This document shows, piece after piece, positions 10,825 to 31,511 of a stretch of 33,140 nucleotides of DNA. This DNA comes from Aquirufa sp. (GTDB lineage: Bacteria > Bacteroidota > Bacteroidia > Cytophagales > Spirosomataceae), in contig JBIILT010000001.1 of the NCBI GenBank assembly GCA_044338355.1, positions 1 through 33,140 on the forward strand, given 5' to 3'. The translations under genes and the position numbers were made by a program. The first letter of the stretch is position 1. Each line of letters begins with the position of its first letter. The notes beneath the pieces are model-generated. The model did not search any database. It saw nothing but the letters and a program-made list of their open reading frames with translations, and was not told the DNA's origin.

Positions 10825-10922
10825 CAAATATAAGTATCATTTTGACACTAAAAACAAATTCTGTATTATTTTACTAAAATTAATGTAACAAAAAAGCCCC
10901 CGGTAGAATTACCGGGGGCTCT
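10825..10922 (-). repeat. 98-bp terminator+operator+promoter module, copy A
   Basis: On the minus strand: hairpin AGCCCCCGGTA/TACCGGGGGCT with T-tail, TTTG, palindrome AGTGTCA-AAA-TGATACT (10833-10849) and -7 TATATTTG. Aligns ungapped to 31414-31511. Confidence 0.88.
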
Positions 10923-10945
10923 GAAAATCAAAAGAATAAGATTAC

Positions 10946-11392
10946 TTAAATAACGAGAGATTCTTTAAATGACTTGTAACTTTCTATCATTTCATTGATA
11001 TAATTCTTCTTATCATTTTTCATTCTAGTTTTTACGATTCCAGTATAGGTATCCCCTAAATGATCATAAAAGAAATCAGTCGTAAAAATGGCCATTTCTA
11101 CCATGATGGGAAAGGTTTCCATTCCTTTTTCCTCTAGTAAATAGTGAACATTCTTCTTGTTTAATACCCCCTTCATTCTGCTTACAAAACCCGTTGACTC
11201 TAATCTCTTCAGTCGATTGGAAAGCATTTTGCTAGGCATTAACTCAGGAGCGGTTTTGAATTCATTAAAGGTGGATTTATGGAAAAATATCATATCTCTC
11301 AATATCAATAGAGACCATTTATCGCCTAAAACATCCAATCCAGTAGCTATAGGGCACAAAGATCGAAACATATCCTTATTGTTCTTTTTCAT
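10946..11392 (-). CDS. HxlR/DUF24 family winged-helix regulator with N-terminal Cys
   Basis: RSLCPIATGLDVLGDKWSLLILRD...LSNRLKRLE..G. ATG at 11392 is preferred, with a TATTTTTG -7 element at 11402-11409. Confidence 0.9.
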   Translation of the reverse strand: MKKNNKDMFRSLCPIATGLDVLGDKWSLLILRDMIFFHKSTFNEFKTAPELMPSKMLSNRLKRLESTGFVSRMKGVLNKKNVHYLLEEKGMETFPIMVEMAIFTTDFFYDHLGDTYTGIVKTRMKNDKKNYINEMIESYKSFKESLVI

Positions 11393-11416
11393 ATTGGCGC
11401 GCAAAAATAAGAATTG

Positions 11417-12289
11417 TTAGTTAAATCCGATTTTCGCTAAACCCTTATGGCTAATCACAATTGCCTCTAAAGCCGTTTCATTAAAACAAGCATCTTGCTC
11501 CACGAAATAATACTGCATTCCTGACAATTTCTTGTTGTCAAGAACACGTTTGAAATCAATTTTCCCGTTTCCTACTGGTGCGAAACGACCTTGATCATCC
11601 ATATCTTTTACATGCCAAATCTTGAAACGACCTGGATAACGCTTGAAATAAGCCACTGGATCTGCGCCTGCTTTCGTCACCCAATATAAATCCATTTGGA
11701 AATTAACATACTTCGGGTTGCAATTCTCTAATAAATAATCAATCACTACGGTTCCGTCTGCGTCTTTCACGAATTCGAAATCATGGTTGTGATACAATAA
11801 TTGTAAACCAGCGGCAGCACATTTCTCGCCTAATTTATCCAGGATTTGAGCTAAGTTTTTAGCCCCCCCCTTCATGGTCATTTTTTTCCCGTCATGTCCA
11901 AATAAGCCCATAGGAGGTACTGGAATGACAAAGTATTTAAATCCTGCCGTCTTTAGGTCAGCAATTTGCTGATCAATGTTTTCAAAATTAGCAGTTCCTT
12001 GGTGTGCAGAGATCGGAGTTAATTTCATCTCCGCTAAAAGGGATTTGAAATCCGCTGGAGATAAATTATAAAACTTGCCGTTTTCGTAACCCGCTGACTC
12101 CACGTTTACGTAACCTGCTTGTGCTACTTTTTCTAACGTCGCGCGCGCATCTTTCATCGCATCACGCACCGTGTACAAGGCTAATCCCCCAAAAGGCTTT
12201 TCGGCCCGAACATCTTTATCTGAAGGTTTAAAGGAAACCAGCGACAACGCCATGAAGGCGCCTATGATAATAATTGATTTAATTTTCAT
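11417..12289 (-). CDS. Sugar phosphate isomerase/epimerase (xylose-isomerase-like TIM barrel), exported
   Basis: GLALYTVRD, YHNHDFEF, QMDLYW, HVKD, VGNGKIDF and FVEQD motifs, with an N-terminal signal peptide. Confidence 0.92.
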   Translation of the reverse strand: MKIKSIIIIGAFMALSLVSFKPSDKDVRAEKPFGGLALYTVRDAMKDARATLEKVAQAGYVNVESAGYENGKFYNLSPADFKSLLAEMKLTPISAHQGTANFENIDQQIADLKTAGFKYFVIPVPPMGLFGHDGKKMTMKGGAKNLAQILDKLGEKCAAAGLQLLYHNHDFEFVKDADGTVVIDYLLENCNPKYVNFQMDLYWVTKAGADPVAYFKRYPGRFKIWHVKDMDDQGRFAPVGNGKIDFKRVLDNKKLSGMQYYFVEQDACFNETALEAIVISHKGLAKIGFN

Positions 12290-12360
12290 GGTTACTATAG
12301 TATGATTTTTGTTGAAAGTCGAATTTAATGTATTTATTTGATAAAATGGCTCACAATCGA

Positions 12361-12705
12361 TTATCGAAAATTCAATAAAATGCGTTTGCGGTCCTCATTC
12401 TCCTTCGCATTCTTATGATAAAGCTCCACGAAGACAATTTTGTCCTCTTCAGGGAAATGAGCATAAATCAACCGAAGTCCCGAATTAACTCCACGTCCTT
12501 TTAAAGACTTACAAGCTATTTTCTTCACCTTGATTACACAAGTGCTTAGCGCTAAATCGCTTATTTCAAAACTGAATGGTGGGCGCTCATTAGGAACGAC
12601 AATTAAGACCTGCTTAACTACCTCTATATCTTCAGGCAGCGAACGGTATTTCTTTATTAATGACTTTAGGTCTTTTTTATATTCCTCTAACTCTAGAAAG
12701 ATCAT
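12361..12705 (-). CDS. RelE/ParE-superfamily-like toxin
   Basis: Basic 114-aa protein (YKKDLKSLIKKYRSL..DI; KGRGVNSGLRLIY...VELYHK) with an ATGA overlap with the upstream antitoxin-like gene. Confidence 0.7.
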   Translation of the reverse strand: MIFLELEEYKKDLKSLIKKYRSLPEDIEVVKQVLIVVPNERPPFSFEISDLALSTCVIKVKKIACKSLKGRGVNSGLRLIYAHFPEEDKIVFVELYHKNAKENEDRKRILLNFR

Positions 12706-13508
12706 TGCTCCTCCTTCTCCTCTCCATAATTTCTAACGGAGAAAGGAGCCTCCCGATAAAATGCAAGTTCATAATTGATTACTTCCCCATCTTTAGTAGC
12801 AAGCCAGGGCAAATCTTTATGAGAATATTGGCTGATCGAAGCTGCTGACCAATCGCTCATTTGTTCAATCACGCGATCTATCACTTCTGTTTCACTGGCT
12901 TTCAACTCTTTTAAATTTGCTTTAACAAGCGGCAAATAGCGTGTTTGAGCATAGCCGCGATATACTGTTTTCACACGTTGCAATTGCTCCTTTTCAATCA
13001 TCTGCTGAATCAGTGAATCCAGTTTTTGAGGAACAGGGCCATAGGGTAATTTCCGGTATTTCGCACCCGTTAAATGCTCTTCATACAATTCATAATAATT
13101 GAAATCAGAGAAATAAAGGAGTTTATATAATACCGTTTCCCCTACATTTGGTTTTCCTGCGCAGCGCTCAAGCATGTAAAGCAATACATTTTTAAACTTT
13201 TCTGCGTGGAACTTGGGAATAGAAATTCGTTCTTTTTTTTCCAAAGATGGAGCGTCTTCGAACACAAAATCAGGATTCAATTCAAAGTCAGCCGACAAAA
13301 ATTCATCCAACGAAAACTCCAAGTGTATCGATAACTTTTGAAGCTCTAGGACGTCTACGCCCCTGTTTCCTAATTCAATTTGCGTTAAGGAAGATCTAGA
13401 AATCTGAACACTTTTCGCCAAATCCTCTTGAGACAAACCCTTCCTTTTTCGAAGTTCAGTCACCCGAAAACCAATATCTTTTTTAGTCAGCTTATCCTCC
13501 ATGTCCAT
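12702..13508 (-). CDS. XRE-HTH fused to DUF4065 (Panacea/SocA) antitoxin domain
   Basis: N-terminal LRKRKGLSQEDLA..VQISRSSLTQIELG, then LYKLLYFSDF, YGPVP and SHKDLPW Panacea motifs. Confidence 0.88.
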   Translation of the reverse strand: MDMEDKLTKKDIGFRVTELRKRKGLSQEDLAKSVQISRSSLTQIELGNRGVDVLELQKLSIHLEFSLDEFLSADFELNPDFVFEDAPSLEKKERISIPKFHAEKFKNVLLYMLERCAGKPNVGETVLYKLLYFSDFNYYELYEEHLTGAKYRKLPYGPVPQKLDSLIQQMIEKEQLQRVKTVYRGYAQTRYLPLVKANLKELKASETEVIDRVIEQMSDWSAASISQYSHKDLPWLATKDGEVINYELAFYREAPFSVRNYGEEKEEQ

Positions 13509-13532
13509 TCTGTTTTAATTTTGGGAATAAAA

Positions 13533-13586
13533 CAAAGATACACAATTGTTAGATAAAAGAACTATTAAATGTTTGATAATAAAACA
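13533..13586 (-). promoter_or_regulatory. Promoter and possible autoregulatory sites of the HTH-Panacea operon
   Basis: Minus-strand TATCTTTG (13533-13540). Two related 17-mers, TGTTAGATAAAAGAACT (13547) and TGTTTGATAATAAAACA (13570), the second with palindromic ends. Confidence 0.45.
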
Positions 13587-13600
13587 ATATGGGCTGTGCC

Positions 13601-13891
13601 CTAGTTAGCAAAGTGGGCCACTAAACTCTCCCACTCTTCCTCTAATGTATGTGACGGCCGCAATTTCTTGGCTCTAGCATACCAATAATCAGCGTTCCAA
13701 CTATCCCCTTCCTTTCGGTGCAAATAGGCATGTACCCAGGCTGCCTCCGCACCGGGTAATTGATCGACAAAATCGTGTGCTGTTTTCCAATCACCTTTAG
13801 CGTCATACCACAGACTTTTAAGTTGGGGTGAGAACGCCGGATCAGGGGCGTCTTGTGATAAAGATTCTCTGAATGATTTGCTGCTTTTCAT
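13601..13891 (-). CDS. Conserved hypothetical protein (96 aa)
   Basis: LWYDAKGDW..AH...WVHAYLHRKEGD..NADYWY motif of a widespread uncharacterised family. Confidence 0.85.
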   Translation of the reverse strand: MKSSKSFRESLSQDAPDPAFSPQLKSLWYDAKGDWKTAHDFVDQLPGAEAAWVHAYLHRKEGDSWNADYWYARAKKLRPSHTLEEEWESLVAHFAN

Positions 13892-13942
13892 AACGTAAAT
13901 ATGAATATAAAATAGTTATTTCACGGTCATCAAACATTAAAA

Positions 13943-15073
13943 ATGAAAAAGGCGACTACTCTACTTCTGCTATTTTTATCTATTCAATTAAGTGCGCAAT
14001 CTTCTTTATTTAAAAAAGTAGAACGAGTTTTAAAGGCCCAAATCATCGCCCAAGCGAACCAAAATTTAACCGAAAAGCCCATCACCGTTACCAGTTTTCA
14101 TAGTGAAAGATCTGCCGGTGGACGGCACGATTTTTTCTCCGAAGGAGATTATTGGTGGCCAGATCCTGCAAATCCCAATGGCCCTTACATTCAAAAAGAT
14201 GGACTAACTAATCCAGCCAATTTTACTGCACATCGCAAGGCGATGATACGCTTTAGCCAGATTGTCGCGAATCAAACTTCTGCCTATTTAATCACAGGGC
14301 GTCCTAATTACGCGAATCAAGCTATTAAACATATAAAAGCTTGGATGGTGGACACAACAACGATGATGAGTCCGCACCTATTGTATGCGCAAGCTATCAA
14401 GGGAAAAGTGACGGGACGAGGGGTTGGAATCATTGATATGATCCAACTGATTGAGGTTGCGAAAAGTACTGAGATTTTGGAAAAACGCCAGCTGATAAAT
14501 CCCGAAGATCGACTGCAAATTCATGCCTGGTTTACCAACTATTTACGTTGGGTAACCACGCATCCATACGGAATAGATGAGCGGGAGGCTAAGAATAATC
14601 ACGGTACGTGCTGGGTCATGCAGGTGGGTGCATTTGCCCATTTGGTGAAGGATGAGGTGCTTTTAACTTACTGCAAAGACCGTTTTCTGAATGTGATTTT
14701 ACCCAATCAGATGGATGAGCGCGGAGCCTTTCCATTAGAACTAAAGCGGACAAAGCCCTATGGTTATTCCCTATTTAACCTAGATGCGGTTATGACAACA
14801 GCTCATATTTTTAAGGTCAAAAATGCCTCCCTAAAAAAGGGGATCGACTTTTTGTATCCTTATGTTAAGGACAAAAAGAGCTGGCCATTTCCACAAGATG
14901 TGATGTATTGGGAGGAGTGGCCTGTAGCGGCGCCATTTTTATTGTTTGGCTATCAAGATTACGCTGAAGCTAGCTGGTATGAAACCTGGGAAAAACTAAC
15001 TCATTTTCCAGAAAATGAAGAGGTGATTCGGAATCTGCCTATTCGAAATCCATTGATTTGGTTAGTAGATTAA
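13943..15073 (+). CDS. Alginate lyase family protein (alpha/alpha toroid)
   Basis: Signal peptide, then HDFFSEGDYWWP, PYIQKDG..NP, GRGVGIID, NNHGT and ELKRTKPYGYS. Confidence 0.88.
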   Translation: MKKATTLLLLFLSIQLSAQSSLFKKVERVLKAQIIAQANQNLTEKPITVTSFHSERSAGGRHDFFSEGDYWWPDPANPNGPYIQKDGLTNPANFTAHRKAMIRFSQIVANQTSAYLITGRPNYANQAIKHIKAWMVDTTTMMSPHLLYAQAIKGKVTGRGVGIIDMIQLIEVAKSTEILEKRQLINPEDRLQIHAWFTNYLRWVTTHPYGIDEREAKNNHGTCWVMQVGAFAHLVKDEVLLTYCKDRFLNVILPNQMDERGAFPLELKRTKPYGYSLFNLDAVMTTAHIFKVKNASLKKGIDFLYPYVKDKKSWPFPQDVMYWEEWPVAAPFLLFGYQDYAEASWYETWEKLTHFPENEEVIRNLPIRNPLIWLVD

Positions 15074-15086
15074 GCTCTATCATTAG

Positions 15087-15114
15087 ACGAACCGTCTTTT
15101 CAAAGACGGTTCGT
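15087..15114. terminator. Hairpin between convergent genes (probable terminator)
   Basis: ACGAACCGTCTTT/AAAGACGGTTCGT perfect inverted repeat; no strong U-tail. Confidence 0.55.
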
Positions 15115-15171
15115 GCGTGACTTCTATTCATACACATAATCCATTCCTATCTTACATGACAAAAATAGGAC

Positions 15172-16488
15172 CTATAACTTTATTCCCCACGCTTTATTCA
15201 ATTTTCTGCCGAGTAATGCATTTGCAGCCGCATCGGTGAATTTTTCAGTTGTTGGATTCCAAGTCAACGATTTATTTACCTCATAGGCAATGTTTCCGAT
15301 GTTACAAACAGAGGCTGTTCTGTGGCCAATTTCCACATCGCAAATTGGCAGCGTGCGATTACGCATCGCAGATAAAAAGTCCTTATAGTGATTTGCGCTA
15401 TCGTAAACGCGCTTTTCATTTGGCCCAATAATACGATCCTTCAAGGCCGCATTGGATGTTTCTAACTTCTTTCTTTGAACACGTAACGTTCCCTCGGTAC
15501 CGACAAACTCGATGGCATTATTCCACTCCCAAGGCTGGTGAGTCATCTGAATTCCATTCGCGTAAGTATAGGTCAAGAATTCATTCCCATTCGATTTCGG
15601 AGCATCCACTCGTACGGGACCGCTTCCGTCCATATCCAATGCCCATTGTACAATATCAAACATGTGAGCGCCCCAATCCGTCATGCCTCCTCCACCAAAT
15701 TCCTTGTATTTTCTCCAATTAGGGAACACATCTTTTGAAATTGGGGGAGCTAATTCAGAATTAAACGAAACAGCGTCATTAGGTCCTAACCACTTCTCAA
15801 AATCTAATCCAGTAGGCAATTCTTCCGCCATTAAATTATACCCTGTTGGAGGGGGGCCTACATTCACTTTAATGGATTTCACTTCCCCTATGTAGCCATT
15901 ACGTATTAAATCGGCTGTTTGTCTAAACTCCGGCCAGGAGCGTTGCATGGATCCTGTTTGAAAAACACGCTTGTATTTCCGCGTCGCATCTACCATGGCA
16001 CGACCCTCTTTTACGGTCAACGAAAGTGGTTTTTCGCAATAAATATCTTTGCCGGCAGCAGCAGCGCGCACCGCCATGGCTGCATGCCAATGGTCTGGAC
16101 TAGCAATGACAACTCCGTCAATATTTTTAAGAGCCAACAGCTCTCTAAAATCTTGGTATTGGGCTATATCAGCATAGGCTCCTAGCGAAGATGATTTGGA
16201 ATAAATCTCTTTTACGCGATCTAAAAATAGATTTGCTTTTGCTTGATACACCTCTGATATGGCAGCAATACGAACCTCTCCTGTGGTCAAAAATGAGTTA
16301 GATAATCCCCTCCCCTGCTTTCCTGTTCCAATAAATCCTAAGTTAATAAGATCGCTAGGCGCCAAGTATGGAGAACCATCTGGACGAATTCCCCCCAAAA
16401 CATGTCGAGGAACGATAAAAAATGAGCCAAAGGCCAAACTTGCATTCGTTAGAAAATCACGTCTTTTAATCGAAGTTGAGGTTTTCAT
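15172..16488 (-). CDS. Gfo/Idh/MocA family oxidoreductase with Tat signal
   Basis: Start reassigned to 16488. KRRDFL Tat motif, IVPRHVLGG, GFIGTGKQG, ASPDHWH, YCEKP and DWGAH. Confidence 0.93.
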   Translation of the reverse strand: MKTSTSIKRRDFLTNASLAFGSFFIVPRHVLGGIRPDGSPYLAPSDLINLGFIGTGKQGRGLSNSFLTTGEVRIAAISEVYQAKANLFLDRVKEIYSKSSSLGAYADIAQYQDFRELLALKNIDGVVIASPDHWHAAMAVRAAAAGKDIYCEKPLSLTVKEGRAMVDATRKYKRVFQTGSMQRSWPEFRQTADLIRNGYIGEVKSIKVNVGPPPTGYNLMAEELPTGLDFEKWLGPNDAVSFNSELAPPISKDVFPNWRKYKEFGGGGMTDWGAHMFDIVQWALDMDGSGPVRVDAPKSNGNEFLTYTYANGIQMTHQPWEWNNAIEFVGTEGTLRVQRKKLETSNAALKDRIIGPNEKRVYDSANHYKDFLSAMRNRTLPICDVEIGHRTASVCNIGNIAYEVNKSLTWNPTTEKFTDAAANALLGRKLNKAWGIKL

Positions 16489-16644
16489 GAGGTAGGTTTG
16501 AGGTTTAATGTTGCGCTTAAAAATCAAATCAACTTAAAATAAATGGAATCCCCAAAATTTATAGAATTATTGTTCTAGAGACTAACAGCCTCTTTGTCAT
16601 ATCGTTAGAAATTTATTAATTTTCAGAAAGGTAAAATTTCCAAG

Positions 16645-19635
16645 ATGAAAAAATTACTTCTGGGCATAAGCTTACTCCTATTAGGTTGCCAAGATAAACA
16701 GCGGCCTAATCTCGCAAACACGCCTGAATTACAAAAAGCCTTGCAATCCATTCAGGTGTTGGACGGATTTGAAGTGGAGCTTGTCGCAGCAGAGCCTCTG
16801 GTGGAAGATCCCGTGGCCATGGAAATAGACGAAGATGGAAACTGGTACGTCGCAGAAATGCCGGGTTACCCATTGGATCTTAGCAAAAAGGGACAAATTC
16901 GAAAACTTATCGACACGAATGACGATGGCTATCCAGACAAAAGCATCGTCTTTGCAGACAGCCTTACGCTTCCCATGGGCGTCATGCGCTGGAAAAAAGG
17001 AATCCTAGTCGCTGATTCCCCTAATATCCTCTATTTCGAGGATACAGATGGGGATCAAAAGGCAGATAAAAGAGAGGTCGTACTGACCGGGTTTTCTTTA
17101 TCAAATCCACAACACAACATGAATACCCCGAAATTCGGGATAGATAACTGGATTTACTTGGGGCATTCGGGTGCGATCAACTCCTTTACGTATGAAGATA
17201 TTTTTGGGGATAAAGGGAAAGAAATTACGTTCCCGAACAAACCCGATGCCGCATTTTTACCTAAAAATGGAAACGGACGAAACGTTCGGTTTAAACCTGA
17301 TTCCTATCAGATAGAATCACTCTCGGGTGAAACACAATATGGGCACACGACGGATCCTTGGGGCCGACGGTTTTACACCGATAACGCGAATCATTTGTTC
17401 CATGAAGTTATTGATGCGCGCTATGTCAATGCGAACAAAAACCTAGTCATTGCAGAGGCGATGGAAAAAATTCCTGACCATGGAAATGCCTGTGAAATCT
17501 ATCCCATTTCCGAGAATCCGAATCATCAATTGTTAACAGATGTGGGGGTGGTAACTTCTAGTTGTGGAATCACGTGGTATGATGGTGGGGCGTTTGGTGA
17601 GAAATACAACAAGGTGACTTTCGTGGGAGAGCCAGTGCATAATTTGGTTCATGCAGATATTATCGAATCCCATGGGGCAACGTTTAAAGGGAAACGCTTG
17701 GTGGAGAAAAAGGAATTTTTGGCCTCAAAAGACCCCTGGTTTAGACCCGTTAATTTCTACGTAGGTCCAGATGGCGCCATGTATGTGGTGGATTATTACC
17801 GCCAATTAGTGGAGCATCCGGAGTGGATGTCGGAGGAGGTTAATAAAAGTGGCGCCTTGTATAATGGCTCGACTAAAGGCCGTATTTACCGCATCACGAA
17901 AAAAGGGTCGAAGGCAATGGATTGGATGAAATCTGTGAAGTTATCTACTAAATCTTCCGAGGATCTTGCTGAACTACTAACCCATGAAAACGGCTGGTAC
18001 CGTCGGACTGCGCAGCGTTTATTATTCCAGCGGGGAGACAAATCGGTCGCGCCGCAACTAAAGAAAATTGTTGCTAGGGATGAAAAATTAGGAGCGGTTC
18101 AGGCACTTTGGCTATTGCATGATTGGGGGATGGTGGATGCCAAAGATCTAGCGAATGCGCTGGGTTCTTCCACAGAGGGTATGCGCGAAAATGCCTTGCA
18201 AGTGGCCGATAGGCTCATTGATAAACCAGGGTTTGCGAAAAATGCCGACTTACAGAAACAACTAATAAGCTTAGCAGATGACCCATCTGCGCGCGTTCGA
18301 TTCCAATGGCTTTGTTCGTCAAGCTACATAGGACTACCTAATGCGGATCAGTTGCGGGCTAAAATTTTAGCTAAAGATATTGAAGACCCTTGGGCGGGAA
18401 TTGCGGCCATTGCTTCCTCGCAAGATAGCGAAGAAGAATTGCTAAAATCCTCCATTCGCACCTTAGGTGCAAGTCCTTCTACAGGCAAATCCACCATTTT
18501 TAGCTACCTCGCGGCGACGTTAGTTAAGAAGGGAGATCCTGCCTTCTTGTCTATAGCCATTGACCAAAATCCTTCGAATGACTGGTGGCAAGCTGCAATT
18601 TGGTATGGCGTTGCAACACTTATCAAAGAAGCAGGAGTGCCATTCCCGCTAGAAGAAAAACAAAAAGAGGCGCTGTTAGCATCGTTCATGCAGACAAACC
18701 AGCCTGAGCTTCGCACCTCTATTCTTTCGCTATTGAAATCTCTCGGACTTCCTAAAAACACGCACCAATTCGCTCTCGTAGAGCAACGATTTAGCCAATC
18801 AAAAGATACCCAATTTCAGCGAGATGCCTTGTCGCTGTTAGCCTTGCGTGGAGACGCAAAAACGCAAGCTAAATTAATCCAATACCTCTCTTCGAAAAGC
18901 CCCGTTCACTTGCAATTAGGAGCCATCGAATCCTTACCAAATACCTTAACTAAGGCCGATTTACAAAAGATAAATACCTATTATCCTTCGCTATCAGTAC
19001 CGGTAAAAAAAGCTTGGATTGCGTATTTACTAGAGCATGAAAATCAAGTGACCACCTTACTCCAAGAGGTAAAGAAAAACAATATAAAGCGTGCTGATTT
19101 AGCGTGGCCACAAATCGTGGACTTGATGAATTACTACGACACAGGCGTGCGTAAATTAGCCCGCTCGGTACTGGCTATATCGGAAGACCGAAAGGCCATC
19201 TTGCAAAATTACCTGCCAGCGGCAGAGAAGGTTGGAAATGCGGGAATGGGTCAAAAAGTCTTTGAAGCAAATTGTACTTCTTGCCACGCCATCAAAAATT
19301 TAAAGGGGGTGGATTTTGGCCCTAATTTAAATACCCTGAAAAGTAGAAACGCGCTCTCGATTATTACGGAAATTATTAACCCTAATAATTCCATTGCCGA
19401 TAAATATGGCCAGTGGAACATAGAATTAAATAATGGCACGCGTCTGACGGGAATTATTACTTCAGAGAACGATCAAACCATCGCAATAAAGTTAATGGGA
19501 GGAGTTATTCAAAACATCTCCAAATCGAACATAAAGTCTAAAAAAGACTTGCGCGTTTCGGCCATGCCGAATGGGCTAGAGTCGAACATCAGCGTGCAAG
19601 CGATGGCAGATTTATTGGCGTATATCAAGAAATAA
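16645..19635 (+). CDS. PVC-type heme-binding CxxCH lipoprotein (dehydrogenase-like propeller, HEAT-like repeats, cytochrome c)
   Basis: Lipobox LLG-C; GFEVELVAAEPLVEDPVAM; DPWFRPV..VGPDGAMYVVD; NCTSCH...GPNL; SAMPNGLE. Confidence 0.9.
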   Translation: MKKLLLGISLLLLGCQDKQRPNLANTPELQKALQSIQVLDGFEVELVAAEPLVEDPVAMEIDEDGNWYVAEMPGYPLDLSKKGQIRKLIDTNDDGYPDKSIVFADSLTLPMGVMRWKKGILVADSPNILYFEDTDGDQKADKREVVLTGFSLSNPQHNMNTPKFGIDNWIYLGHSGAINSFTYEDIFGDKGKEITFPNKPDAAFLPKNGNGRNVRFKPDSYQIESLSGETQYGHTTDPWGRRFYTDNANHLFHEVIDARYVNANKNLVIAEAMEKIPDHGNACEIYPISENPNHQLLTDVGVVTSSCGITWYDGGAFGEKYNKVTFVGEPVHNLVHADIIESHGATFKGKRLVEKKEFLASKDPWFRPVNFYVGPDGAMYVVDYYRQLVEHPEWMSEEVNKSGALYNGSTKGRIYRITKKGSKAMDWMKSVKLSTKSSEDLAELLTHENGWYRRTAQRLLFQRGDKSVAPQLKKIVARDEKLGAVQALWLLHDWGMVDAKDLANALGSSTEGMRENALQVADRLIDKPGFAKNADLQKQLISLADDPSARVRFQWLCSSSYIGLPNADQLRAKILAKDIEDPWAGIAAIASSQDSEEELLKSSIRTLGASPSTGKSTIFSYLAATLVKKGDPAFLSIAIDQNPSNDWWQAAIWYGVATLIKEAGVPFPLEEKQKEALLASFMQTNQPELRTSILSLLKSLGLPKNTHQFALVEQRFSQSKDTQFQRDALSLLALRGDAKTQAKLIQYLSSKSPVHLQLGAIESLPNTLTKADLQKINTYYPSLSVPVKKAWIAYLLEHENQVTTLLQEVKKNNIKRADLAWPQIVDLMNYYDTGVRKLARSVLAISEDRKAILQNYLPAAEKVGNAGMGQKVFEANCTSCHAIKNLKGVDFGPNLNTLKSRNALSIITEIINPNNSIADKYGQWNIELNNGTRLTGIITSENDQTIAIKLMGGVIQNISKSNIKSKKDLRVSAMPNGLESNISVQAMADLLAYIKK

Positions 19636-21377: not shown

Positions 21378-21483
21378 ATTTTATCATGTGAAGTACCATG
21401 AAAAACAAATTAGGAGTTGAAGATTGGTGAATTAATCGCTCAACATTGGTAATTTTATACACTTATCAACAAACAAACTATAA

Positions 21484-23632: not shown

Positions 23633-23663
23633 CGTTATCCATTACCCCCCCCCCCGTTATCCA
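23620..23663. repeat. Hairpin + C11 tract flanked by a 9-bp direct repeat
   Basis: Stem GGGGGTAAT (23620-23628)/ATTACCCCC (23641-23649); C11 at 23645-23655; CGTTATCCA at 23633-23641 and 23655-23663. Confidence 0.7.
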
Positions 23664-23675
23664 AGTGTTTACAAG

Positions 23676-25220: not shown

Positions 25221-25231
25221 TATAGATCGGA

Positions 25232-27151
25232 TTAAAAACTGGTTTGTCTCAAGATGGTTTTATTGAATGGAATTAAAGTGATATTCTGTATTTGATTCGT
25301 CGATTGGTTTATGGCATTCATGGTGATTTGGCCATTCGTGAAAGTTGCTTGATTCGCTTCTATGAATTTAAACCGAGTGGTTTCTGTAGGCTTATACATG
25401 ATATCATCAAAATTAGGATAATACGATTTCCCCTTCATCTCTAAAGCGTCAATAGGTTTTGCGAAAAATAAAGCCCCATGGCGAACATATTTTTCCTTAT
25501 TTAAATCTTCTTTTATTTGAATGTCAGCCTTAAATGCCATTTCAATTACGTCCTCTTTTGCAAATGGCCTGTCGAAAACTAAGAAGCCATTTTCAAGCGT
25601 ATATTTCTCTTTAGTATACACCTCCATCGCCCATTCAGGTTTTCTAATCTTAACTTTGAAAGAAGCATTGCCAGGATTTGAAATTTTAAAGGCAAAGGAA
25701 TTTTGAAAAGGATACTCGGTGATAGTTTCTATTGTTACGCTCTGATTATTTACGCTCGTTTGAAGGATATTAGGCATTAAAAGCACATTGACTAACGTGT
25801 TCGCGTTTTCTTTCAGCCACGCTTTTTCTAAAAAATAAGGTGTGATTCTTCCCGCATTGGGATTGCAACAAACTGCAGCATCTTGATGAGCTGGAGAGTA
25901 TTTGTATCTAGTTTGCTTTCTATTTGCTTCCTCTTCCCCATTTCTGGTGCCTAACATTTCGAACGAATTATCTGTTTTTAGATAGGCTATACAGGAATAA
26001 TTAGGGTTTCTTGAGCCTTGCGCGGCATTGTAAAAAATGGTTTCAATCGCTTCTGCAGTTTGGGGATTACCTTGTTTTTGAAACAAAACAGTGTAGCTAT
26101 CCACTAATTCGTGTAAGGAGCAATACTCATACCCGGTGGTAGCCGCATTCGCATATCTTTCGGAAATCCACTCATCCCCGGTGGCACCGCCAGTAGGTGT
26201 TGTCGTCTTCTCTATTCTTTGTAGGTAGATAGCTAGGGCAGATTTAATTTCTTTGTTATAGGAAGCATACGCTGCCACAATTAAGGGGCGTAAATGCTCA
26301 TAGGTATGAACCCCATGGCTGGATAATTTGTATGTCGGATTTAAAATAGAGGCTAGTTGAACGTCCTTTTCTGACTGATGCGTTTTACTAAAATCTTGGT
26401 ACAGAAATAAGGCGTAATCGGTATATTTTTTATTTCCTGTAATTTGATACATTTTATCTAAGACATCTGTAAATGTCAAGCCATGGGAAACTCCTCCGTT
26501 GAATTCTTTTCCGGATGAAAACGGACTAGACTTATAGATCGGATAATTTGTCATGACATTGTGAACCGCTTTCTCAATCGCTTTCCATACTGTTTTATCC
26601 TTTGAATATTCATAATATGCCAAAAGGCCTCTATACATCGTTGCCTTAGACCATAATTCTCCATTTTCCGTATTGAATTTATACCTCAACTCTTGATCAT
26701 AAATGCCAATGTATCCATCTTCGTCTTGTGTTTTCAACACCCTTTGAATATACTTTTCTACTTTATTTAGGCCTGCCTTATCATTTAAAAGAATGACATT
26801 TCTAATGTACCCATCCCACCAGTTAGATTGGGTTTCACTGTTCCACCATTTGTATTGCTCTGAACCTTCTGTGTCACCTTCTTTATTGTTCCCTAAATCC
26901 TTCATTTTTGAGTTTTTATGCAAACGAGCTGAACTATAGATGGGATCATTCATTAAATCAGGGACGATAACATCTAAATTCCCTACAAATCCTTCCACAT
27001 CTTTTTGCATTTGTGTTTTGATCCAGCCGGCAGGTTTTACACTTCCAAAGGGAAGTATTTGGTATTTTTCATTCCCCTTAATCGTGGATTCGGTTTGTGA
27101 TTTCACAAAGAAAAAAGCAAGCATGAATAACATGAGATAAATTTTCTTCAT
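25232..27151 (-). CDS. GH127/GH146-like beta-L-arabinofuranosidase domain protein
   Basis: VKPAGWI, QDEDGYIG, HGV, YEYC and CCNPN (Zn/Cys site of HypBA1-like enzymes), TEYPF, IRKPEW. Confidence 0.8.
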   Translation of the reverse strand: MKKIYLMLFMLAFFFVKSQTESTIKGNEKYQILPFGSVKPAGWIKTQMQKDVEGFVGNLDVIVPDLMNDPIYSSARLHKNSKMKDLGNNKEGDTEGSEQYKWWNSETQSNWWDGYIRNVILLNDKAGLNKVEKYIQRVLKTQDEDGYIGIYDQELRYKFNTENGELWSKATMYRGLLAYYEYSKDKTVWKAIEKAVHNVMTNYPIYKSSPFSSGKEFNGGVSHGLTFTDVLDKMYQITGNKKYTDYALFLYQDFSKTHQSEKDVQLASILNPTYKLSSHGVHTYEHLRPLIVAAYASYNKEIKSALAIYLQRIEKTTTPTGGATGDEWISERYANAATTGYEYCSLHELVDSYTVLFQKQGNPQTAEAIETIFYNAAQGSRNPNYSCIAYLKTDNSFEMLGTRNGEEEANRKQTRYKYSPAHQDAAVCCNPNAGRITPYFLEKAWLKENANTLVNVLLMPNILQTSVNNQSVTIETITEYPFQNSFAFKISNPGNASFKVKIRKPEWAMEVYTKEKYTLENGFLVFDRPFAKEDVIEMAFKADIQIKEDLNKEKYVRHGALFFAKPIDALEMKGKSYYPNFDDIMYKPTETTRFKFIEANQATFTNGQITMNAINQSTNQIQNITLIPFNKTILRQTSF

Positions 27152-27348
27152 GGGTAATTAGGATAGAGTTTGATGTAAGTAAGTTTACTTCTAGAGGTTG
27201 ATTTTCATATCGAGAAGAATGCTTGCCTCTTTTTTATAGTTCAAAATTATTTATTCAACATTGATTGGATTAACATAAATTTGTTAAACTATAAGACAAT
27301 ATTGAATTCTAATTGAATTTAATGATCAATTTAAGTTTATATTAAGCC

Positions 27349-28191
27349 ATGAAAGCGAAATTAGAAGATATTGCCTCCGAAAAAGGGCATTCCAGTTTTT
27401 ATGCCTATCGGTTTCGTGTCCCCTTTTTTGAATTTAAATGGCACTACCATCCTGAGTACGAATTGACATGTATTATAAAAGGAAAAGGTCACCGCATTGT
27501 AGGCAATTCCTATGAGCAATTTGTGGAAGGTGATTTAGTTTTATTGGGGACTAATTTGCCTCACACATGGTCCAATAAATTAAATGACGCTAGCCATTCT
27601 GAGGCCGTCGTTATTCAATTTTCAAAGGAATTAATCTCCCCCTTTATCGGGCTTAACGAAGGGCATTTGATAAAGCATATGTTAGAGGCTTCGGCTAGGG
27701 GAATGCGATTTGAGGCGGATGAAACATTTGGCTTAAAAATGCTCGAATTAACCGAGAGCAAAGGGATGGAAAGAATCACAAAATTAATTTCCTTATTAGA
27801 TGATTTATCCCAAAAAACAGCTGCCATTATTGCCCCTAATACATTTCACAATATCGTCTCTAAGAAAAGTGAAATGCGAATAAATACCGTTTGCGTCCAT
27901 ATCCAGAATAACTTTTACAACAACTTGTCTCTAAAAGAAGTGGCCGACCTGATAAGTCTAACGGAAAGTAATTTTTGCAAGTTTTTTAAAAAGGCAACTG
28001 GGACAACTTATTCTAATTATTTAAATGAAATAAGGATAAATGAGGCGAGTAGAATGTTAGTACAAACAGATAAAACTATTAGCCAAATATGCTTTGAATG
28101 TGGTTTCGAAACCTTGAGTTATTTTAATCGAGTATTTTTGAAAAAGAAGACGATTACACCTTCTTATTACAAAAAACTTCATTCAAAATAA
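27349..28191 (+). CDS. AraC family transcriptional regulator
   Basis: WHYHPEYEL cupin domain, GDLVLLGTNLPH, FCKFFKKATG and CGFETLSYFNRVF. Divergent from GH127-GH13. Confidence 0.95.
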   Translation: MKAKLEDIASEKGHSSFYAYRFRVPFFEFKWHYHPEYELTCIIKGKGHRIVGNSYEQFVEGDLVLLGTNLPHTWSNKLNDASHSEAVVIQFSKELISPFIGLNEGHLIKHMLEASARGMRFEADETFGLKMLELTESKGMERITKLISLLDDLSQKTAAIIAPNTFHNIVSKKSEMRINTVCVHIQNNFYNNLSLKEVADLISLTESNFCKFFKKATGTTYSNYLNEIRINEASRMLVQTDKTISQICFECGFETLSYFNRVFLKKKTITPSYYKKLHSK

Positions 28192-28286
28192 GGCTATCCT
28201 TTCATTCAATGCCGCCATTTTCATTTGTAAAATTTCGATTTTTAGACAATTTTCGGTTAATTTATTATTCTAACTCACTTATATCA

Positions 28287-29084
28287 ATGTCCACATTAAA
28301 AAGAATTTATAAAAGAAACACGCACAATGCATTTTTTAAAGCATTGGCGGGCTTTGGCAGAGTTTTAAACAGATTGTATGAAAATAAGAACTACGATCTT
28401 TACAGTAATGGGGAAGTAACTATTTTGCAAAAAATAGCTACACTGAATCCCTCGGTGATCATTGATGGCGGCGCGAATGTGGGAGATTACTCAATCATCG
28501 CAAATCAAGTGATGCCTAATTGCAAAATATATGCCTTTGAACCCGTAGAATCTACCTTTCAACAATTTCTTACTAATACGAAGGGCTTACAAAATGTCAT
28601 TCCGATAAAAAAGGGCTTTTTCAAAGAGACCTGTACATCAGAAATAAATCTATTTGATTCACATGAACATTGCTCCATTTACGATTTTGAAGGACTAGCA
28701 ACGAGTGCAGAGCAGAAGCAAACGATAGAGCTCGTGAGTGGTGATGATTTCATCAAAGAGAATAACATAGAAACGATTGACTTTCTAAAGCTCGATGTGG
28801 AAGGGGCTGAATTTGATGCTTTGCTTGGATTTGAAAAAGCAATTAAGAGTGGCAAAGTCAAGCTTATTCAATTTGAATATGGGTATATTAATATCTCTAC
28901 TAAGAAGTTACTCATTGATTATTATCAGTTCTTTGAAGCGCACGGTTACTTAGTGGGTAAAGTTTTCCCTAAGAATGTTGAATTCAGAGATTACCATTTT
29001 AAGCACGAAGATTTTATTGGGCCTAATTTTGTAGCTGTCAAAAAATCCGAAACTGCGCTGATTAACCTATTAAGCAAAAGTTAA
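28287..29084 (+). CDS. FkbM family methyltransferase
   Basis: Start reassigned to 28287. IIDGGANVG, AFEP, LKLDVEGAE and IQFEYG. Confidence 0.92.
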   Translation: MSTLKRIYKRNTHNAFFKALAGFGRVLNRLYENKNYDLYSNGEVTILQKIATLNPSVIIDGGANVGDYSIIANQVMPNCKIYAFEPVESTFQQFLTNTKGLQNVIPIKKGFFKETCTSEINLFDSHEHCSIYDFEGLATSAEQKQTIELVSGDDFIKENNIETIDFLKLDVEGAEFDALLGFEKAIKSGKVKLIQFEYGYINISTKKLLIDYYQFFEAHGYLVGKVFPKNVEFRDYHFKHEDFIGPNFVAVKKSETALINLLSKS

Positions 29085-29561
29085 TTTGCCATAAAGCGCT
29101 GCTAGCTTCGACTTCTGAGCCACTAATACTGCTCCCTCAATACTGGCTTTTTTAGCCTTCCATAATGCCGGCATCGAAACCTTCCCTCGCGAAAGGGAAT
29201 ACATCCAGAATAAATCGATGAAATTAAGGAAGAGATTAGCTCGATAAAAGGTGGATGCCTTTTCTATTTGAAACCCTAATTTTTGCAAGGTTCTGTCGTT
29301 GAAAAAATACGATGTCCCTACAATCGTCACCGATTCTGGAACCTGCTTGTTTTCAATCAAGGAAATGAGGTGCAATAACCCTTCCAAATGATACCCAAGA
29401 AGTCTGTTTCTTAATTCAATTCCGGGCTTATATTTTCTTAGCACAAACAGATGATCAAAGCCTTTTTCGATGATCAATACCGCTAGAAAAAAACCAGCCA
29501 AAAGAAAGAGAATGGATTCAATCCACACCAAGGCTTTTGGCTGTTTATAATAATCATTCAT
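29070..29561 (-). CDS. Hypothetical membrane-associated protein (possibly internally deleted)
   Basis: 163-aa ORF with an N-terminal TM segment and VGTSYFF..RT..KLGF motif; overlaps the FkbM 3' end by 15 nt. Confidence 0.7.
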   Translation of the reverse strand: MNDYYKQPKALVWIESILFLLAGFFLAVLIIEKGFDHLFVLRKYKPGIELRNRLLGYHLEGLLHLISLIENKQVPESVTIVGTSYFFNDRTLQKLGFQIEKASTFYRANLFLNFIDLFWMYSLSRGKVSMPALWKAKKASIEGAVLVAQKSKLAALYGKLTFA

Positions 29562-29587
29562 TCCTTATTTTTTATGCGCAATTGAAC

Positions 29588-29689
29588 TTAACTTAATAAT
29601 GACTTGATTGCATCTCTAAAAATCAAGGATAGAAATACAAGAACGCCCACCACAACTTCTTTTCGATACTTTTTTAAAAATTGATTCAT
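29588..29689 (-). CDS. Putative 33-aa single-pass membrane microprotein
   Basis: MNQFLKKYRKEVVVGVLVFLSLIFRDAIKSLLS*. Starts 5 nt after the upstream stop and fills the gap between two co-oriented genes. Confidence 0.5.
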   Translation of the reverse strand: MNQFLKKYRKEVVVGVLVFLSLIFRDAIKSLLS

Positions 29690-29694
29690 ACTAA

Positions 29695-29982
29695 TTATAC
29701 AACTCTTTTTCTACCAAGCAACAAATAAACGATGCCAGCAATGGTGCCTAAAAACCCTATAAAAATGAAGGCGATAGTCCACATGATTTTTTCATTTTTA
29801 TCGATTCTTTCAGAGCGCCAAACTTCTGACAATGCACTTACAACAAAAACCCCATTTGTTACCATTCCCACAATCAAAAGTTGTTCCGCACCAGGTAAGT
29901 GTAAAATCTTCATAAATGCACCTACTAGCACCAAAACCAAGCTGATGAAAAAGCTCCATGTAACAATCCTTCCTAGATTCAT
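29695..29982 (-). CDS. Small membrane protein, GldL N-terminal-like plus PLDc_N-like segment
   Basis: LVGAFMKILHLPGAEQLLIVGM (GldL-N-like) followed by EKIMWTIAFIF...GIVYLLLGRK. Confidence 0.75.
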   Translation of the reverse strand: MNLGRIVTWSFFISLVLVLVGAFMKILHLPGAEQLLIVGMVTNGVFVVSALSEVWRSERIDKNEKIMWTIAFIFIGFLGTIAGIVYLLLGRKRVV

Positions 29983-30078
29983 TGCGAATTATCTGATTTA
30001 AAAATCAAATTAAATGATAAACAATTACATAACCATAAGTCAGATTATTTATCTTGTTTCTCTAAACCAATCAAACCC

Positions 30079-30585
30079 TTGAAACAAGTTGACATCATCG
30101 CCCATTATTTCGAGAATGACGGAGATATTCCGAACAATATTCTCCCTGTGGTCATCTACAAAAATGCCCTTCAGTACGTTATAAATAAGGACTTTGAACA
30201 TTTATTTTGCCAAAATGGTTGGTCAAATAATTGGCACGATATCATATTAACTGAGGACCATTTTCACAGCAATACCCATGAAGTTTTAGGGTTACAAAGT
30301 GGTCAAGTGAGCTTAATGCTGGGAGGTAAAAATGGGAAAATAGTTTTGGTTGAAACTGGGGATGTTGTCATTTTACCCGCTGGGGTTGGACATTATTCAG
30401 TCGACAATTCTGTTGCATATCAATTTGTGGGTGGCTATCCTAACGGGGCTGATTGGGACCTAAAGTTTAGTTTAAAAAAGGAAGACAGCCATTCTATTTT
30501 GGCAGAAATCGCGAATATTGCTCTTCCAGATAAAGACCCTCTTTTTGGCATCGATGGCCCGATTTTAACGTATTGGAAATGCTAA
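30079..30585 (+). CDS. Cupin domain protein (YjlB-like)
   Basis: IPNN.LPV..Y, NGWSNNW, HFHSNTHEVLG, GDVVILPAGVGH and VGGYP; TTG start. Confidence 0.88.
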   Translation: MKQVDIIAHYFENDGDIPNNILPVVIYKNALQYVINKDFEHLFCQNGWSNNWHDIILTEDHFHSNTHEVLGLQSGQVSLMLGGKNGKIVLVETGDVVILPAGVGHYSVDNSVAYQFVGGYPNGADWDLKFSLKKEDSHSILAEIANIALPDKDPLFGIDGPILTYWKC

Positions 30586-30607
30586 ATTAAGCGTACTTTT
30601 GTGAATC

Positions 30608-31390
30608 ATGCATAGAAAAATTCCCCTGTTTTTAGCTTTTTTATTTGTTTCTTGTCAATTTTCATTAGCACAAAATAATCGCTTAACAACCTCGAATACC
30701 ATTGGTTGGTACAATTATTTTGGCACATTCAAATTATCAGAAAAGACCGGTATTCACACAGAATATCAATGGCGAAGAAACGACCTAATTTCAAATTGGC
30801 AACAAGGCCTATTGCGACTTGGGCTAAACTACAATGTGACACCAAGGGTCCTATTTAGAGTAGGGTATGCGTGGGCTGAAACGTTTCCCTATGGGGAATA
30901 CGCTCTCAATAAATTAGGTAGAGAATTTACAGAACATCGTATTTTCGAAATGGTTCAACTATCTCATAAAGAGGGCATTGTAGATATTTCACACCGATTT
31001 ATGTTAGAACAAAGATTTATCGGGCGATATAGTTCAGCGAATGAAATAACCGAAGACGAGTATCCGCTATCGAACAGGGGCAGGTATATGGTTCGCCTTC
31101 AAGTTCCTTTACGTGGTCGAGAGATAAAGGATAAAACAGCCTACTTTGCGGTATATGATGAGGTACTTGTTGGGTTTGGGGAAAATGTAAATGCTAATGT
31201 ATTTGACCAAAATAGAATTGGCATTTTGCTCGGTTATCGTTTCAATAAAACCCTCCGAATTGAAGGAGGATATTTAAACCAAACACTACAATTAGGTAGA
31301 CAAATAAATGGCTTAAATGTATTCCAAAATAATAATGGATTAATCATCAACGCCAACTTCAATTTTGATCTATCAAAACCAAACGATTAA
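30608..31390 (+). CDS. DUF2490 family outer-membrane beta-barrel protein
   Basis: Signal peptide, EYQWRR, QQGLLR.G, EHR, HRFMLEQR and FDQNR. A TACTTTTG -7 element lies at 30594-30601. Confidence 0.88.
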   Translation: MHRKIPLFLAFLFVSCQFSLAQNNRLTTSNTIGWYNYFGTFKLSEKTGIHTEYQWRRNDLISNWQQGLLRLGLNYNVTPRVLFRVGYAWAETFPYGEYALNKLGREFTEHRIFEMVQLSHKEGIVDISHRFMLEQRFIGRYSSANEITEDEYPLSNRGRYMVRLQVPLRGREIKDKTAYFAVYDEVLVGFGENVNANVFDQNRIGILLGYRFNKTLRIEGGYLNQTLQLGRQINGLNVFQNNNGLIINANFNFDLSKPND

Positions 31391-31413
31391 ATCACATAGA
31401 AACTTCAATGTGC

Positions 31414-31511
31414 AGAGCCTCTGGTAAAATTACCGGAGGCTTTTTTATTACATTATTTATTGAAAAAATAATATGTTTTTGTTTACGGTTTCAAAATGAT
31501 ACTTATATTTG
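31414..31511 (+). repeat. 98-bp terminator+operator+promoter module, copy B
   Basis: Hairpin AGCCTCTGGTA/TACCGGAGGCT with T-tail, TTTG, GGTTTCA-AAA-TGATACT (31487-31503) and TATATTTG. The 21-mer TCAAAATGATACTTATATTTG is identical to copy A. Confidence 0.88.

What the first reader, a model, noticed from the sequence alone, without database searches (positions are those of the whole stretch)
10825..31511. Duplicated 98-bp terminator-operator-promoter cassette in inverted orientation, 20.5 kb apart, in front of unrelated genes
Seen: the reverse complement of 10825-10922 aligns without gaps to 31414-31511 (75/98 by hand count). Both copies keep the hairpin and T-tail, identical hairpin-to-promoter spacing, the TTTG element and a perfect 21-mer TCAAAATGATACTTATATTTG. 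The flanking genes are not obviously homologous on either side (HxlR vs DUF2490 upstream; SnoaL-like lipoprotein vs 246-aa exported protein downstream), and both promoters point outward from the enclosed segment. Inference: a portable regulatory module that insulates a gene from upstream transcription and recruits it into one regulon, or a recombination point for gene-cassette exchange or an old inversion.
Basis: partly seen in the sequence, partly recalled or inferred. Interest (0 to 1): 0.75.

Follow-up and report, generated by a model that had tools for sequence, protein, structure and literature searches.

The report
Copied promoter rewires gene into regulon
In a freshwater bacterium, a 98-base terminator-plus-promoter stretch that follows a likely redox-sensing regulator gene also sits, as a likely copy, in front of an unrelated exported-protein gene and would place it under that regulator, a neat but ordinary case of promoter capture with no sign of a DNA inversion.

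Summary
Observation confirmed: 75/98 ungapped, identical 21-mer, E 1e-17 in the genome; the downstream genes are unrelated (NTF2/SnoaL fold versus tandem alpha+beta barrel). The organism is a Bacteroidota, likely Aquirufa. Each copy is an intrinsic terminator, an AT linker, a 17-bp palindrome (RGTATCA-WWW-TGATACY) and the Bacteroidota -7 box TAnnTTTG. The palindrome is one base shorter than the Bacillus HypR box, and the genome's only HxlR/DUF24 regulator gene ends 24 bp before copy A. The operator-promoter recurs 36 times in 17 of 64 congeneric genomes (0 in reversed controls), mostly before small exported-protein genes; a third, perfect palindrome lies just past the window end, downstream of a -7-like box. 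Copy A is the widespread junction. Copy B descends from an A-type junction and travels with the 246-aa gene among four upstream neighbours; its hairpin is destroyed in 2 of 5 genomes while the operator stays. Distant 246-aa homologs lack the operator (0 of 22). No inversion: four relatives are collinear, and no recombinase lies nearby. Verdict: a predicted, apparently undescribed HxlR-type regulon plus one promoter capture; known kinds of thing. Binding and sign of regulation are untested.

The parts
10825..10922 (-). Copy A: terminator + linker + operator + -7 promoter box, between the HxlR gene and the lipoprotein pair; the widespread (likely source-type) junction
10888..10922 (-). Copy A intrinsic terminator (13-bp stem, 4-nt loop, T6 tail), predicted to end the sugar-isomerase/HxlR transcript
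10855..10858 (-). Candidate -33 TTTG, 22 nt from the -7 box; not conserved in all orthologous copies
10833..10849 (-). Copy A 17-bp palindromic operator candidate AGTGTCAAAATGATACT
10825..10832 (-). Copy A Bacteroidota -7 box TATATTTG (TAnnTTTG)
31414..31511 (+). Copy B: the derived copy, in front of the 246-aa gene
31414..31448 (+). Copy B intrinsic terminator; intact here, destroyed in G073 and G079
31478..31481 (+). Candidate -33 TTTG of copy B
31487..31503 (+). Copy B 17-bp palindromic operator candidate GGTTTCAAAATGATACT
31504..31511 (+). Copy B -7 box TATATTTG
10946..11392 (-). HxlR/DUF24 (MarR-type) regulator, 148 aa, single N-terminal Cys in RSLCP aligned with HypR Cys14; likely cognate regulator; only PF01638 gene found in this genome
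11417..12289 (-). Exported xylose-isomerase-like TIM barrel gene, 25 bp upstream of HxlR and likely co-transcribed with it
10244..10792 (-). Lipoprotein 1 (182 aa), NTF2/SnoaL fold, first gene behind copy A
9661..10218 (-). Lipoprotein 2 (185 aa), 48% identical paralog, tandem behind lipoprotein 1
30608..31390 (+). DUF2490 gene; followed by copy B in only 3 of 15 genomes that hold it
31543..32283 (+). 246-aa exported protein, predicted tandem ferredoxin-like (dimeric alpha+beta barrel) fold; the gene that copy B travels with
32383..33140 (-). ~260-aa exported protein, cut by the window end; its start and a perfect palindrome lie on overlapping contig C217 (operator at C217:78-94)

Best explanation
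Copy A is the terminator of the HxlR gene followed by a promoter whose spacer holds a palindrome that is likely the operator of that HxlR/DUF24 regulator, and copy B is likely a once-copied version of this junction that would put the unrelated 246-aa exported-protein gene under the same control. Shown by sequence: the anatomy, the shared descent of hairpin and linker, the recurrence of the operator-promoter before several unrelated exported-protein families, and the movement of the [promoter + 246-aa gene] block among four upstream neighbours. Inferred: the HxlR dimer binds the palindrome and represses (the site abuts the -7 box from upstream at A and B and starts 4 nt downstream of a -7-like box at the 260-aa gene, both positions that would block RNA polymerase; about 70% repressor versus activator); modification of its single N-terminal cysteine by quinones or other electrophiles/oxidants would release it. 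Inferred history: capture happened in a sister lineage (B is closer to the A-type junction of locus L177 than to this genome's own copy A), then the block moved by ordinary homologous or microhomology-guided recombination in a gene-shuffling island. The terminator is a passenger; the inverted orientation is incidental.
For: Palindrome RGTATCA-WWW-TGATACY versus HypR box GTATCAAAATTGATAC (PMC3351151 passages); HypR/YybR, YodB, HxlR are among the PDB relatives and the Cys aligns. Operator+(-7) pattern: 36 matches in 17 of 64 genus genomes, 0 in reversed controls. 17 of 21 genomes with the HxlR ortholog have the operator-promoter directly behind it; 17 of 33 metagenome matches have the ortholog within 600 bp, including contigs of 28% and 34% GC. 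Among 271 candidate TAnnTTTG promoters of this genome only A and B carry the palindrome with at most 1 mismatch. The palindrome occurs in a different position, found without using the -7 pattern, before close orthologs of the 260-aa gene in 6 of 6 genomes, so it is separable from the promoter box. 0 of 22 distant 246-aa homologs have it. Descent: mutual best match among 206 terminators with the operator excluded; all 7 B upstream segments score best against the A-type copy L177. Hairpin lost, operator kept, in G073 and G079; the G079 loss is a DUF2490 deletion at a 9-bp microhomology.
Against: No binding or expression data. G017, G083 and G008 (85, 90, 71% complete) hold operator-promoters but no HxlR-family gene was found; assembly gaps are plausible (G083's lipoprotein contig starts 36 bp before the gene) but not shown. 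Four genomes keep HxlR with no operator behind it (G033, G036, G075, G028), and G033 has no exact relaxed palindrome anywhere. No operator was seen before HxlR's own operon, unlike HypR. The expected intermediate, HxlR directly followed by the 246-aa gene, is in none of 305 loci held. The element tree has weak deep support (54-59) and places the truncated G073 copy apart. Sites gathered with the pattern are conserved partly by construction, and the genomes are kin.
Confidence: 0.7

Rival explanations
1. Same copied promoter and same regulon, but the palindrome is read by another factor (another regulator, or an extended promoter element of a sigma factor) and the HxlR gene is only a neighbour.
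For: Three genomes with operator-promoters lack a detectable HxlR; in the DUF3237 and SOUL-linked promoters the palindrome is imperfect, with the -7-proximal half best kept; half-site spacing is one base shorter than in the HypR box.
Against: The site follows the HxlR ortholog across gene-order changes and across GC 28-41% lineages; it also occurs downstream of a -7-like box, which an extended sigma element would not; HxlR is the only PF01638 gene in G000 and in the single-contig genome G015.
Confidence: 0.15
2. The junction is a working, recombinase-free cassette-exchange point: the shared promoter and the shared ATGAAAAA signal-peptide starts let exported-protein genes be swapped behind the HxlR-controlled promoter repeatedly.
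For: Behind the same HxlR junction different first genes occur: lipoprotein 1, lipoprotein 2 (G020), a 136-aa protein (G082, G030, L183, L187), or none; arrays vary from 1 to 3 lipoproteins; lipoprotein 1 of G073 is 77% identical to ours while HxlR is 97%; the B block has four upstream neighbours.
Against: Breakpoints differ each time (23 bp before the hairpin, inside the hairpin loop, at the GH20 stop) and the whole island shuffles genes at many other junctions; only two hairpin-bearing copies in the 62% assembly; most first-gene changes fit simple deletion in tandem arrays; no A/B chimera seen; the one 5' UTR that looked A-like (L204) was inconclusive.
Confidence: 0.08
3. The two copies arose independently: a generic terminator, a generic Bacteroidota promoter and a converged operator.
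For: The promoter of the DUF3237 gene (C106) also pairs an unrelated GC hairpin with the operator-promoter, so that architecture can arise without this hairpin.
Against: Hairpin 22/28 identical versus mean 8.6 and best 17 for other terminators; hairpin+linker z above 6; same spacing.
Confidence: 0.04
4. The copies are inverted repeats bounding an invertible or once-inverted 20.5-kb segment.
For: Inverted orientation; G073 also has A and B inverted on one contig, 12.8 kb apart.
Against: G073, G006, G020 and G026 are collinear with the window, with single blocks running across A (G073) and across B (G026); no strand-change joints listed in six runs' contigs (tables cut, contigs only); arms only 75% alike; no recombinase in the window, one XerC-like gene and no resolvase in the assembly; in G073 B sits at a different site.
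Confidence: 0.03

Closest known systems
Bacillus subtilis HypR (YybR) regulon, MarR/DUF24 family (PMC3351151; passages read)
   Same: PF01638 regulator with an N-terminal Cys aligned to Cys14; near-identical palindrome (GTATCAAAATTGATAC versus GTATCAAAATGATAC); regulator gene next to its target.
   Different: Centre one base shorter; one Cys only (HypR uses Cys14-Cys49'); HypR activates hypO from -53 to -95, whereas here the sites flank the -7 box; targets are exported SnoaL/NTF2, DUF3237 and alpha+beta-barrel proteins rather than a flavin oxidoreductase; no self-operator seen.
YodB/QsrR/CatR one-cysteine quinone-sensing repressors (structure hit 5hs7; their mode of action and operators recalled, not retrieved)
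   Same: Same family, one N-terminal Cys, repressor-type operator positions.
   Different: Different phylum and targets; inducer unknown here.
Horizontal regulatory transfer / switched intergenic regions / promoter capture (PMC5890482; passages read)
   Same: One gene family is found behind non-homologous upstream regions: AraC-linked direct repeats in distant homologs, the HxlR-type operator-promoter in the 84-100% clade.
   Different: Here the switch is between paralog clades 33-40% identical, not alleles of one core gene, and the donor junction is identifiable, with its terminator carried along.
Bacteroidota sigma-ABfr promoter, -33 TTTG / -7 TAnnTTTG (PMC7366714; passages read)
   Same: -7 box perfect in both copies, 31-32 nt before the start codons.
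   Different: -33 TTTG lies 22 nt upstream and is not kept in several orthologous copies.
Integron cassettes and invertible promoters/shufflons (features recalled)
   Same: A gene block with a hairpin that appears at different sites; an inverted repeat pair.
   Different: No attC cores, no integron integrase or invertase, variable breakpoints, no inversion seen.

Membership tests
MarR/DUF24 (HxlR) regulon | Regulator with PF01638 winged-helix domain | tested here: met
   E 3e-14, above cut-off; PDB relatives PA1607, HypR, YdzF, HxlR, YodB
MarR/DUF24 (HxlR) regulon | N-terminal redox-sensing cysteine | tested here: met
   RSLCP aligns with HypR KEGCP; kept in all full-length orthologs printed
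MarR/DUF24 (HxlR) regulon | Palindromic 16-20 bp operator in target promoters, linked to the regulator | tested here: met
   17-bp palindrome; 17 of 21 ortholog-bearing genomes have it directly behind HxlR; controls 0
MarR/DUF24 (HxlR) regulon | Regulator binds the operator and responds to an oxidant/electrophile | not testable with these tools
   needs gel shift, footprint, knockout
HypR ortholog (two-Cys activator) | Second cysteine, 7-2-7 box upstream of -35, flavin oxidoreductase target | tested here: not met
   single Cys; 7-3-7 site abutting -7; targets are exported proteins
Bacteroidota primary-sigma promoter | -7 TAnnTTTG | tested here: met
   TATATTTG in both copies
Bacteroidota primary-sigma promoter | -33 TTTG | tested here: inconclusive
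   present in both window copies, 22-nt spacer, but changed in several orthologs
Bacteroidota primary-sigma promoter | Transcription start a few bases after the -7 box | not testable with these tools
   only contigs were available; RNA contigs of two studies stop at 10802 and 10797, a weak hint
Intrinsic terminator | GC-rich stem followed by a T run, pairing kept across homologs | tested here: met
   93% of cells paired in 20 copies, 2 pairs with changes on both sides, slid controls 37-69% (related sequences, so not a probability)
Horizontal regulatory transfer / promoter capture | Homologous genes behind non-homologous upstream regions, donor region identifiable | tested here: met
Integron gene cassette | attC cores RYYYAAC / GTTRRRY (recalled motif) and an integron integrase | tested here: not met
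   no cores in 180 bp around either copy; sole tyrosine recombinase is XerC-like; assembly 62% complete
Invertible DNA (inverton/shufflon) | Near-identical inverted repeats, adjacent invertase, both orientations observed | tested here: not met
   75% identity, no recombinase in window, relatives collinear; raw long reads not available
REP/MITE-type dispersed repeat or structured RNA family | Many copies or an Rfam match | tested here: not met
   2 copies in the assembly; 0 Rfam matches in the window

The most novel reading that the evidence does not exclude
Freshwater Bacteroidota carry a cysteine-sensing HxlR regulon made almost wholly of small exported, cofactor-less-looking proteins (SnoaL/NTF2, DUF3237, tandem alpha+beta barrels) that neutralise or capture quinone/humic or other electrophilic compounds outside the cytoplasm, and its membership is remodelled without a recombinase by exchanging signal-peptide genes behind a portable operator-promoter, a cassette array built from promoter and start-codon homology.
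Probability: 0.15. Interest if true: 0.65.

Novelty: new member of a known kind. Interest (0 to 1): 0.33.

Why it matters
It gives a testable operator, a candidate regulator and at least eight families of uncharacterised exported proteins that would share one inducer in a widespread freshwater genus with cultured strains, which is a handle on their function. It also records a promoter capture with the donor junction still recognisable. It does not point to a new mobile element or a DNA switch.

Tried and rejected
Inversion: rejected by collinearity and no strand-change joints; one reference could not span both copies (20,687 bases against a 20,000 limit), so the two regions were laid apart, only contigs were served and the tables were cut, making this part weak. 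Gene+promoter duplication: rejected, downstream proteins unrelated, and the 246-aa and 260-aa proteins are not detectably related to each other. Rfam: nothing. Sigma-70 promoter scan: at chance level, as expected for this phylum. Viral contigs: no 246-aa relative and no motif match. Phylum-wide draw: no close HxlR ortholog in 400 other genomes at E 1e-35; family draw: 246-aa relatives in 1 non-genus genome of those searched. The 21-mer scan of species genomes gave 24 loci, 14 in Aquirufa-like/Cytophagales records and 10 in other taxa; 5 of those 10 were inspected and showed no matching gene context. Of 33 metagenome matches, 3 look unrelated (L175, L179, L201). An exact palindrome in HxlR-less G011 lies inside a coding region. 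The A-like 5' UTR of L204 was inconclusive. The MKK-start count is circular (a filter) and is not used. The QsrR/YodB operator sequences could not be retrieved. The protein atlas was not available for these sequences. RNA runs with small shares give no expression ranking. Earlier findings of the scan: none returned.
Full report
Observation. The reverse complement of 10825-10922 matches 31414-31511 at 75 of 98 positions without gaps, with the identical 21-mer at the end; it is the longest inverted repeat in the window. Against the whole assembly (1.74 Mb, 291 contigs, 62% complete) the match has E 1.2e-17 and there is no third full copy; the next hit (C106, E 4.5e-4) shares mainly the promoter part. 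Similarity falls to background on both sides. The genes downstream are unrelated: BLASTP finds nothing, the profile comparison aligns only the signal peptides, and the models differ in fold: NTF2/SnoaL-like for the 182-aa lipoprotein (pLDDT 84; best Foldseek hits polyketide-cyclase and epoxide-hydrolase folds, E about 1e-6) and a tandem ferredoxin-like alpha+beta barrel for the 246-aa protein (pLDDT 88; best hit 2pgc, E 1.3e-6, TM 0.57). Named records carrying the 21-mer in the same gene context are Aquirufa and Cytophagaceae assemblies, so the genus is likely Aquirufa.

Anatomy. Each copy has four parts. (i) A 13-bp stem with a T tail, 93% paired across 20 copies with two pairs changed on both sides (kin, so supportive only). 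(ii) An AT-rich linker, the least conserved part (mean identity 0.65 versus 0.76 for the hairpin; the higher values for operator and -7 box there are partly set by how the copies were found). (iii) A 17-bp palindrome, at 10833-10849 and 31487-31503. (iv) TATATTTG, the Bacteroidota -7 box TAnnTTTG (PMC7366714, passages), 31-32 nt before the start codon. A TTTG lies 22 nt upstream of the -7 box in both copies but is changed in several orthologs.

The palindrome is likely an HxlR/DUF24 operator. Its consensus RGTATCA-WWW-TGATACY is one base shorter than the footprinted HypR box GTATCAAAATTGATAC (PMC3351151, passages). The gene ending 24 bp before copy A is the only PF01638 gene found in this genome; its single cysteine aligns with HypR Cys14. 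A 26-bp operator+(-7) pattern with up to 2 mismatches gives 36 matches in 17 of 64 genus genomes and none in reversed controls; 14 of the 17 have the HxlR ortholog. Of 21 genomes with the ortholog, 17 have the operator-promoter directly behind it; G033, G036, G075 and G028 do not. In metagenomes 17 of 33 exact matches have the ortholog within 600 bp, including contigs of 28% and 34% GC with other gene orders; 13 more precede the same target families or their remnants; 3 look unrelated. Within this genome only A and B among 271 candidate -7 promoters carry the palindrome with at most one mismatch. An independent test: a weight-matrix scan ranked a perfect palindrome at C217:78 first; C217 overlaps the window's last 32 bases and holds the start of the ~260-aa gene. 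There the palindrome begins 4 nt downstream of a TAnnTTTA box, and the same holds in 6 of 6 genomes with a close ortholog, while 5 of 5 distant homologs, second genes in operons, lack it. A site found on either side of the -7 box fits a repressor rather than a sigma element. Against: G017, G083 and G008 have operator-promoters but no HxlR-family gene was found (85, 90, 71% complete), and no operator was seen before the HxlR operon itself.

The regulon. First genes behind the operator-promoter: lipoproteins 1 and 2, two further SnoaL_2 lipoprotein families, a DUF3237 protein with a signal peptide (C106 in this genome), 136-, 125- and 297-aa exported proteins, the 246-aa protein and the 260-aa protein. 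In one search, where no start filter was applied, all 17 sites but two had a signal-peptide-type MKK/MKN gene within 80 nt or reached the locus end; one faces a convergent gene and one has its gene at 105 nt. For the lipoprotein family, 19 of 20 close loci have the palindrome with at most one mismatch (the exception is cut by a contig start) and 0 of 9 distant loci examined do (9 of the distant matches were returned as loci). What these proteins do is not shown; their folds are common in cyclases, isomerases, cofactor-less monooxygenases and ligand binders, and with a cysteine-sensing regulator an electrophile/quinone response is my inference.

History of copy B. Copy A is the junction between HxlR and the lipoproteins in ten genomes of the genus. 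Copy B occurs in five (G000, G017, G026, G073, G079) and three metagenome loci, always before the 246-aa gene (84-100% identical). With the operator and -7 box excluded, A and B are each other's best match among 206 terminator-like sites (z 6.1, 6.6; hairpin 22/28 versus best other 17): common descent, not convergence. All seven B upstream segments score highest against the A-type junction of L177 (62 for the window's B, against 54 for this genome's own A), and in the tree six of seven B copies form a clade (support 86) nested among A copies with weak deeper support, the truncated G073 copy falling apart (49 elements, shorter ones left out). So the copy was probably made in a sister lineage. 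The block then moved: it follows DUF2490 in G000, G017, G026 and L204, a long sulfatase-like gene (label from its sequence, recalled) in L181/L196, the cupin gene in G079 and GH20 in G073. In G079 DUF2490 was deleted between its start and the hairpin loop at a 9-bp microhomology; in G073 the block is joined at the GH20 stop codon and only the hairpin's 3' end remains. The operator and -7 box survive in all. DUF2490 is followed by B in only 3 of 15 genomes. The 22 distant homologs of the 246-aa gene examined have no operator (best 3-7 mismatches); 18 show instead a direct repeat (AGACAA ... GGACAA) facing a divergent AraC-like gene. The family thus runs on two different regulatory modules. The predicted intermediate, HxlR directly followed by the 246-aa gene, is in none of the 305 loci held.

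No inversion, no cassette machinery. G073, G006, G020 and G026 align to the window in one orientation and order, with unbroken blocks across A (G073) and B (G026). Contigs of six runs showed no strand-changing joint; the loose ends at each copy were the flanks of the other copy (contigs only, tables cut). There is no recombinase in the window, one XerC-like gene and no resolvase in the assembly, no attC cores (recalled motif), no Rfam match and nothing in viral contigs. The surrounding island gains and loses genes at many junctions, so movement of the B block needs no special site.

What is known. The regulator works like the one-cysteine MarR/DUF24 repressors and its site resembles the HypR box, but it is not a HypR ortholog (one Cys, other site position, other targets). 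The capture is a case of horizontal regulatory transfer or promoter capture (PMC5890482, passages). I found no description of this regulon: a search for Aquirufa, HxlR and regulon listed 10 of 45 papers, none mentioning Aquirufa, and the 15 of 40 Aquirufa papers listed are taxonomic or ecological by title and abstract start; subscription journals and supplements were not searched.

Verdict. Real, non-random and explained: a likely new member of a known regulator family with a predicted regulon of exported proteins, plus one traceable promoter capture. Interest 0.33. Binding, inducer, sign of regulation and protein functions remain untested.

Noticed in passing
window 2684-2862 and 7971-8149: 179-bp direct repeat, 79% identical: a start-less second copy of the 74-aa lipoprotein gene, another fragment duplication in this island.
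   Followed up: partly
window 32283 to 31538 joints in runs X1 and X3 (table 5c): Contigs join the end of a 246-aa-family gene to the start of another after 14-16 bases: tandem arrays of this family exist in other strains.
   Followed up: no
window 32307-32350; G000 C217:149; C76:5040: A GCCGATC...GATCGGC hairpin flanks the 260-aa gene on both sides and occurs once elsewhere; relatives have a different hairpin between the 246-aa and 260-aa genes.
   Followed up: partly
L056-L073, L078 upstream regions: Conserved direct repeat (AGACAA ... GGACAA, about 21 bp apart) between distant 246-aa homologs and a divergent ~380-aa membrane-linked AraC-like gene: a second predicted operator.
   Followed up: partly
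window 6046-6635 and 12361-13508: Two toxin-antitoxin-type modules: YefM-YoeB, and an HTH-Panacea antitoxin followed by a 114-aa protein with no Pfam match; both are patchy among relatives.
   Followed up: no
window 9661-10792 and orthologous loci: The lipoprotein array varies from 1 to 3 genes, and lipoprotein 1 is 77% identical in G073 where HxlR is 97% identical, suggesting allele replacement.
   Followed up: partly
window 21378-21483: The GH20-Tdh spacer holds the 3' remnant of a 170-aa gene that is intact in G026 and G006; G073 has the 246-aa block at this same site.
   Followed up: partly
L210 (G006:C9), L190, L200; G033, G036, G075, G028: Orphan operator-promoters facing a convergent gene, and HxlR genes with no target behind them: members of the regulon are lost as well as gained.
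   Followed up: partly
G000 C87:1028: An intergenic site one mismatch from the relaxed palindrome between divergent oxidoreductase-like and transporter-like genes; possible further target or chance (7 real versus 2 control sites at this stringency).
   Followed up: partly
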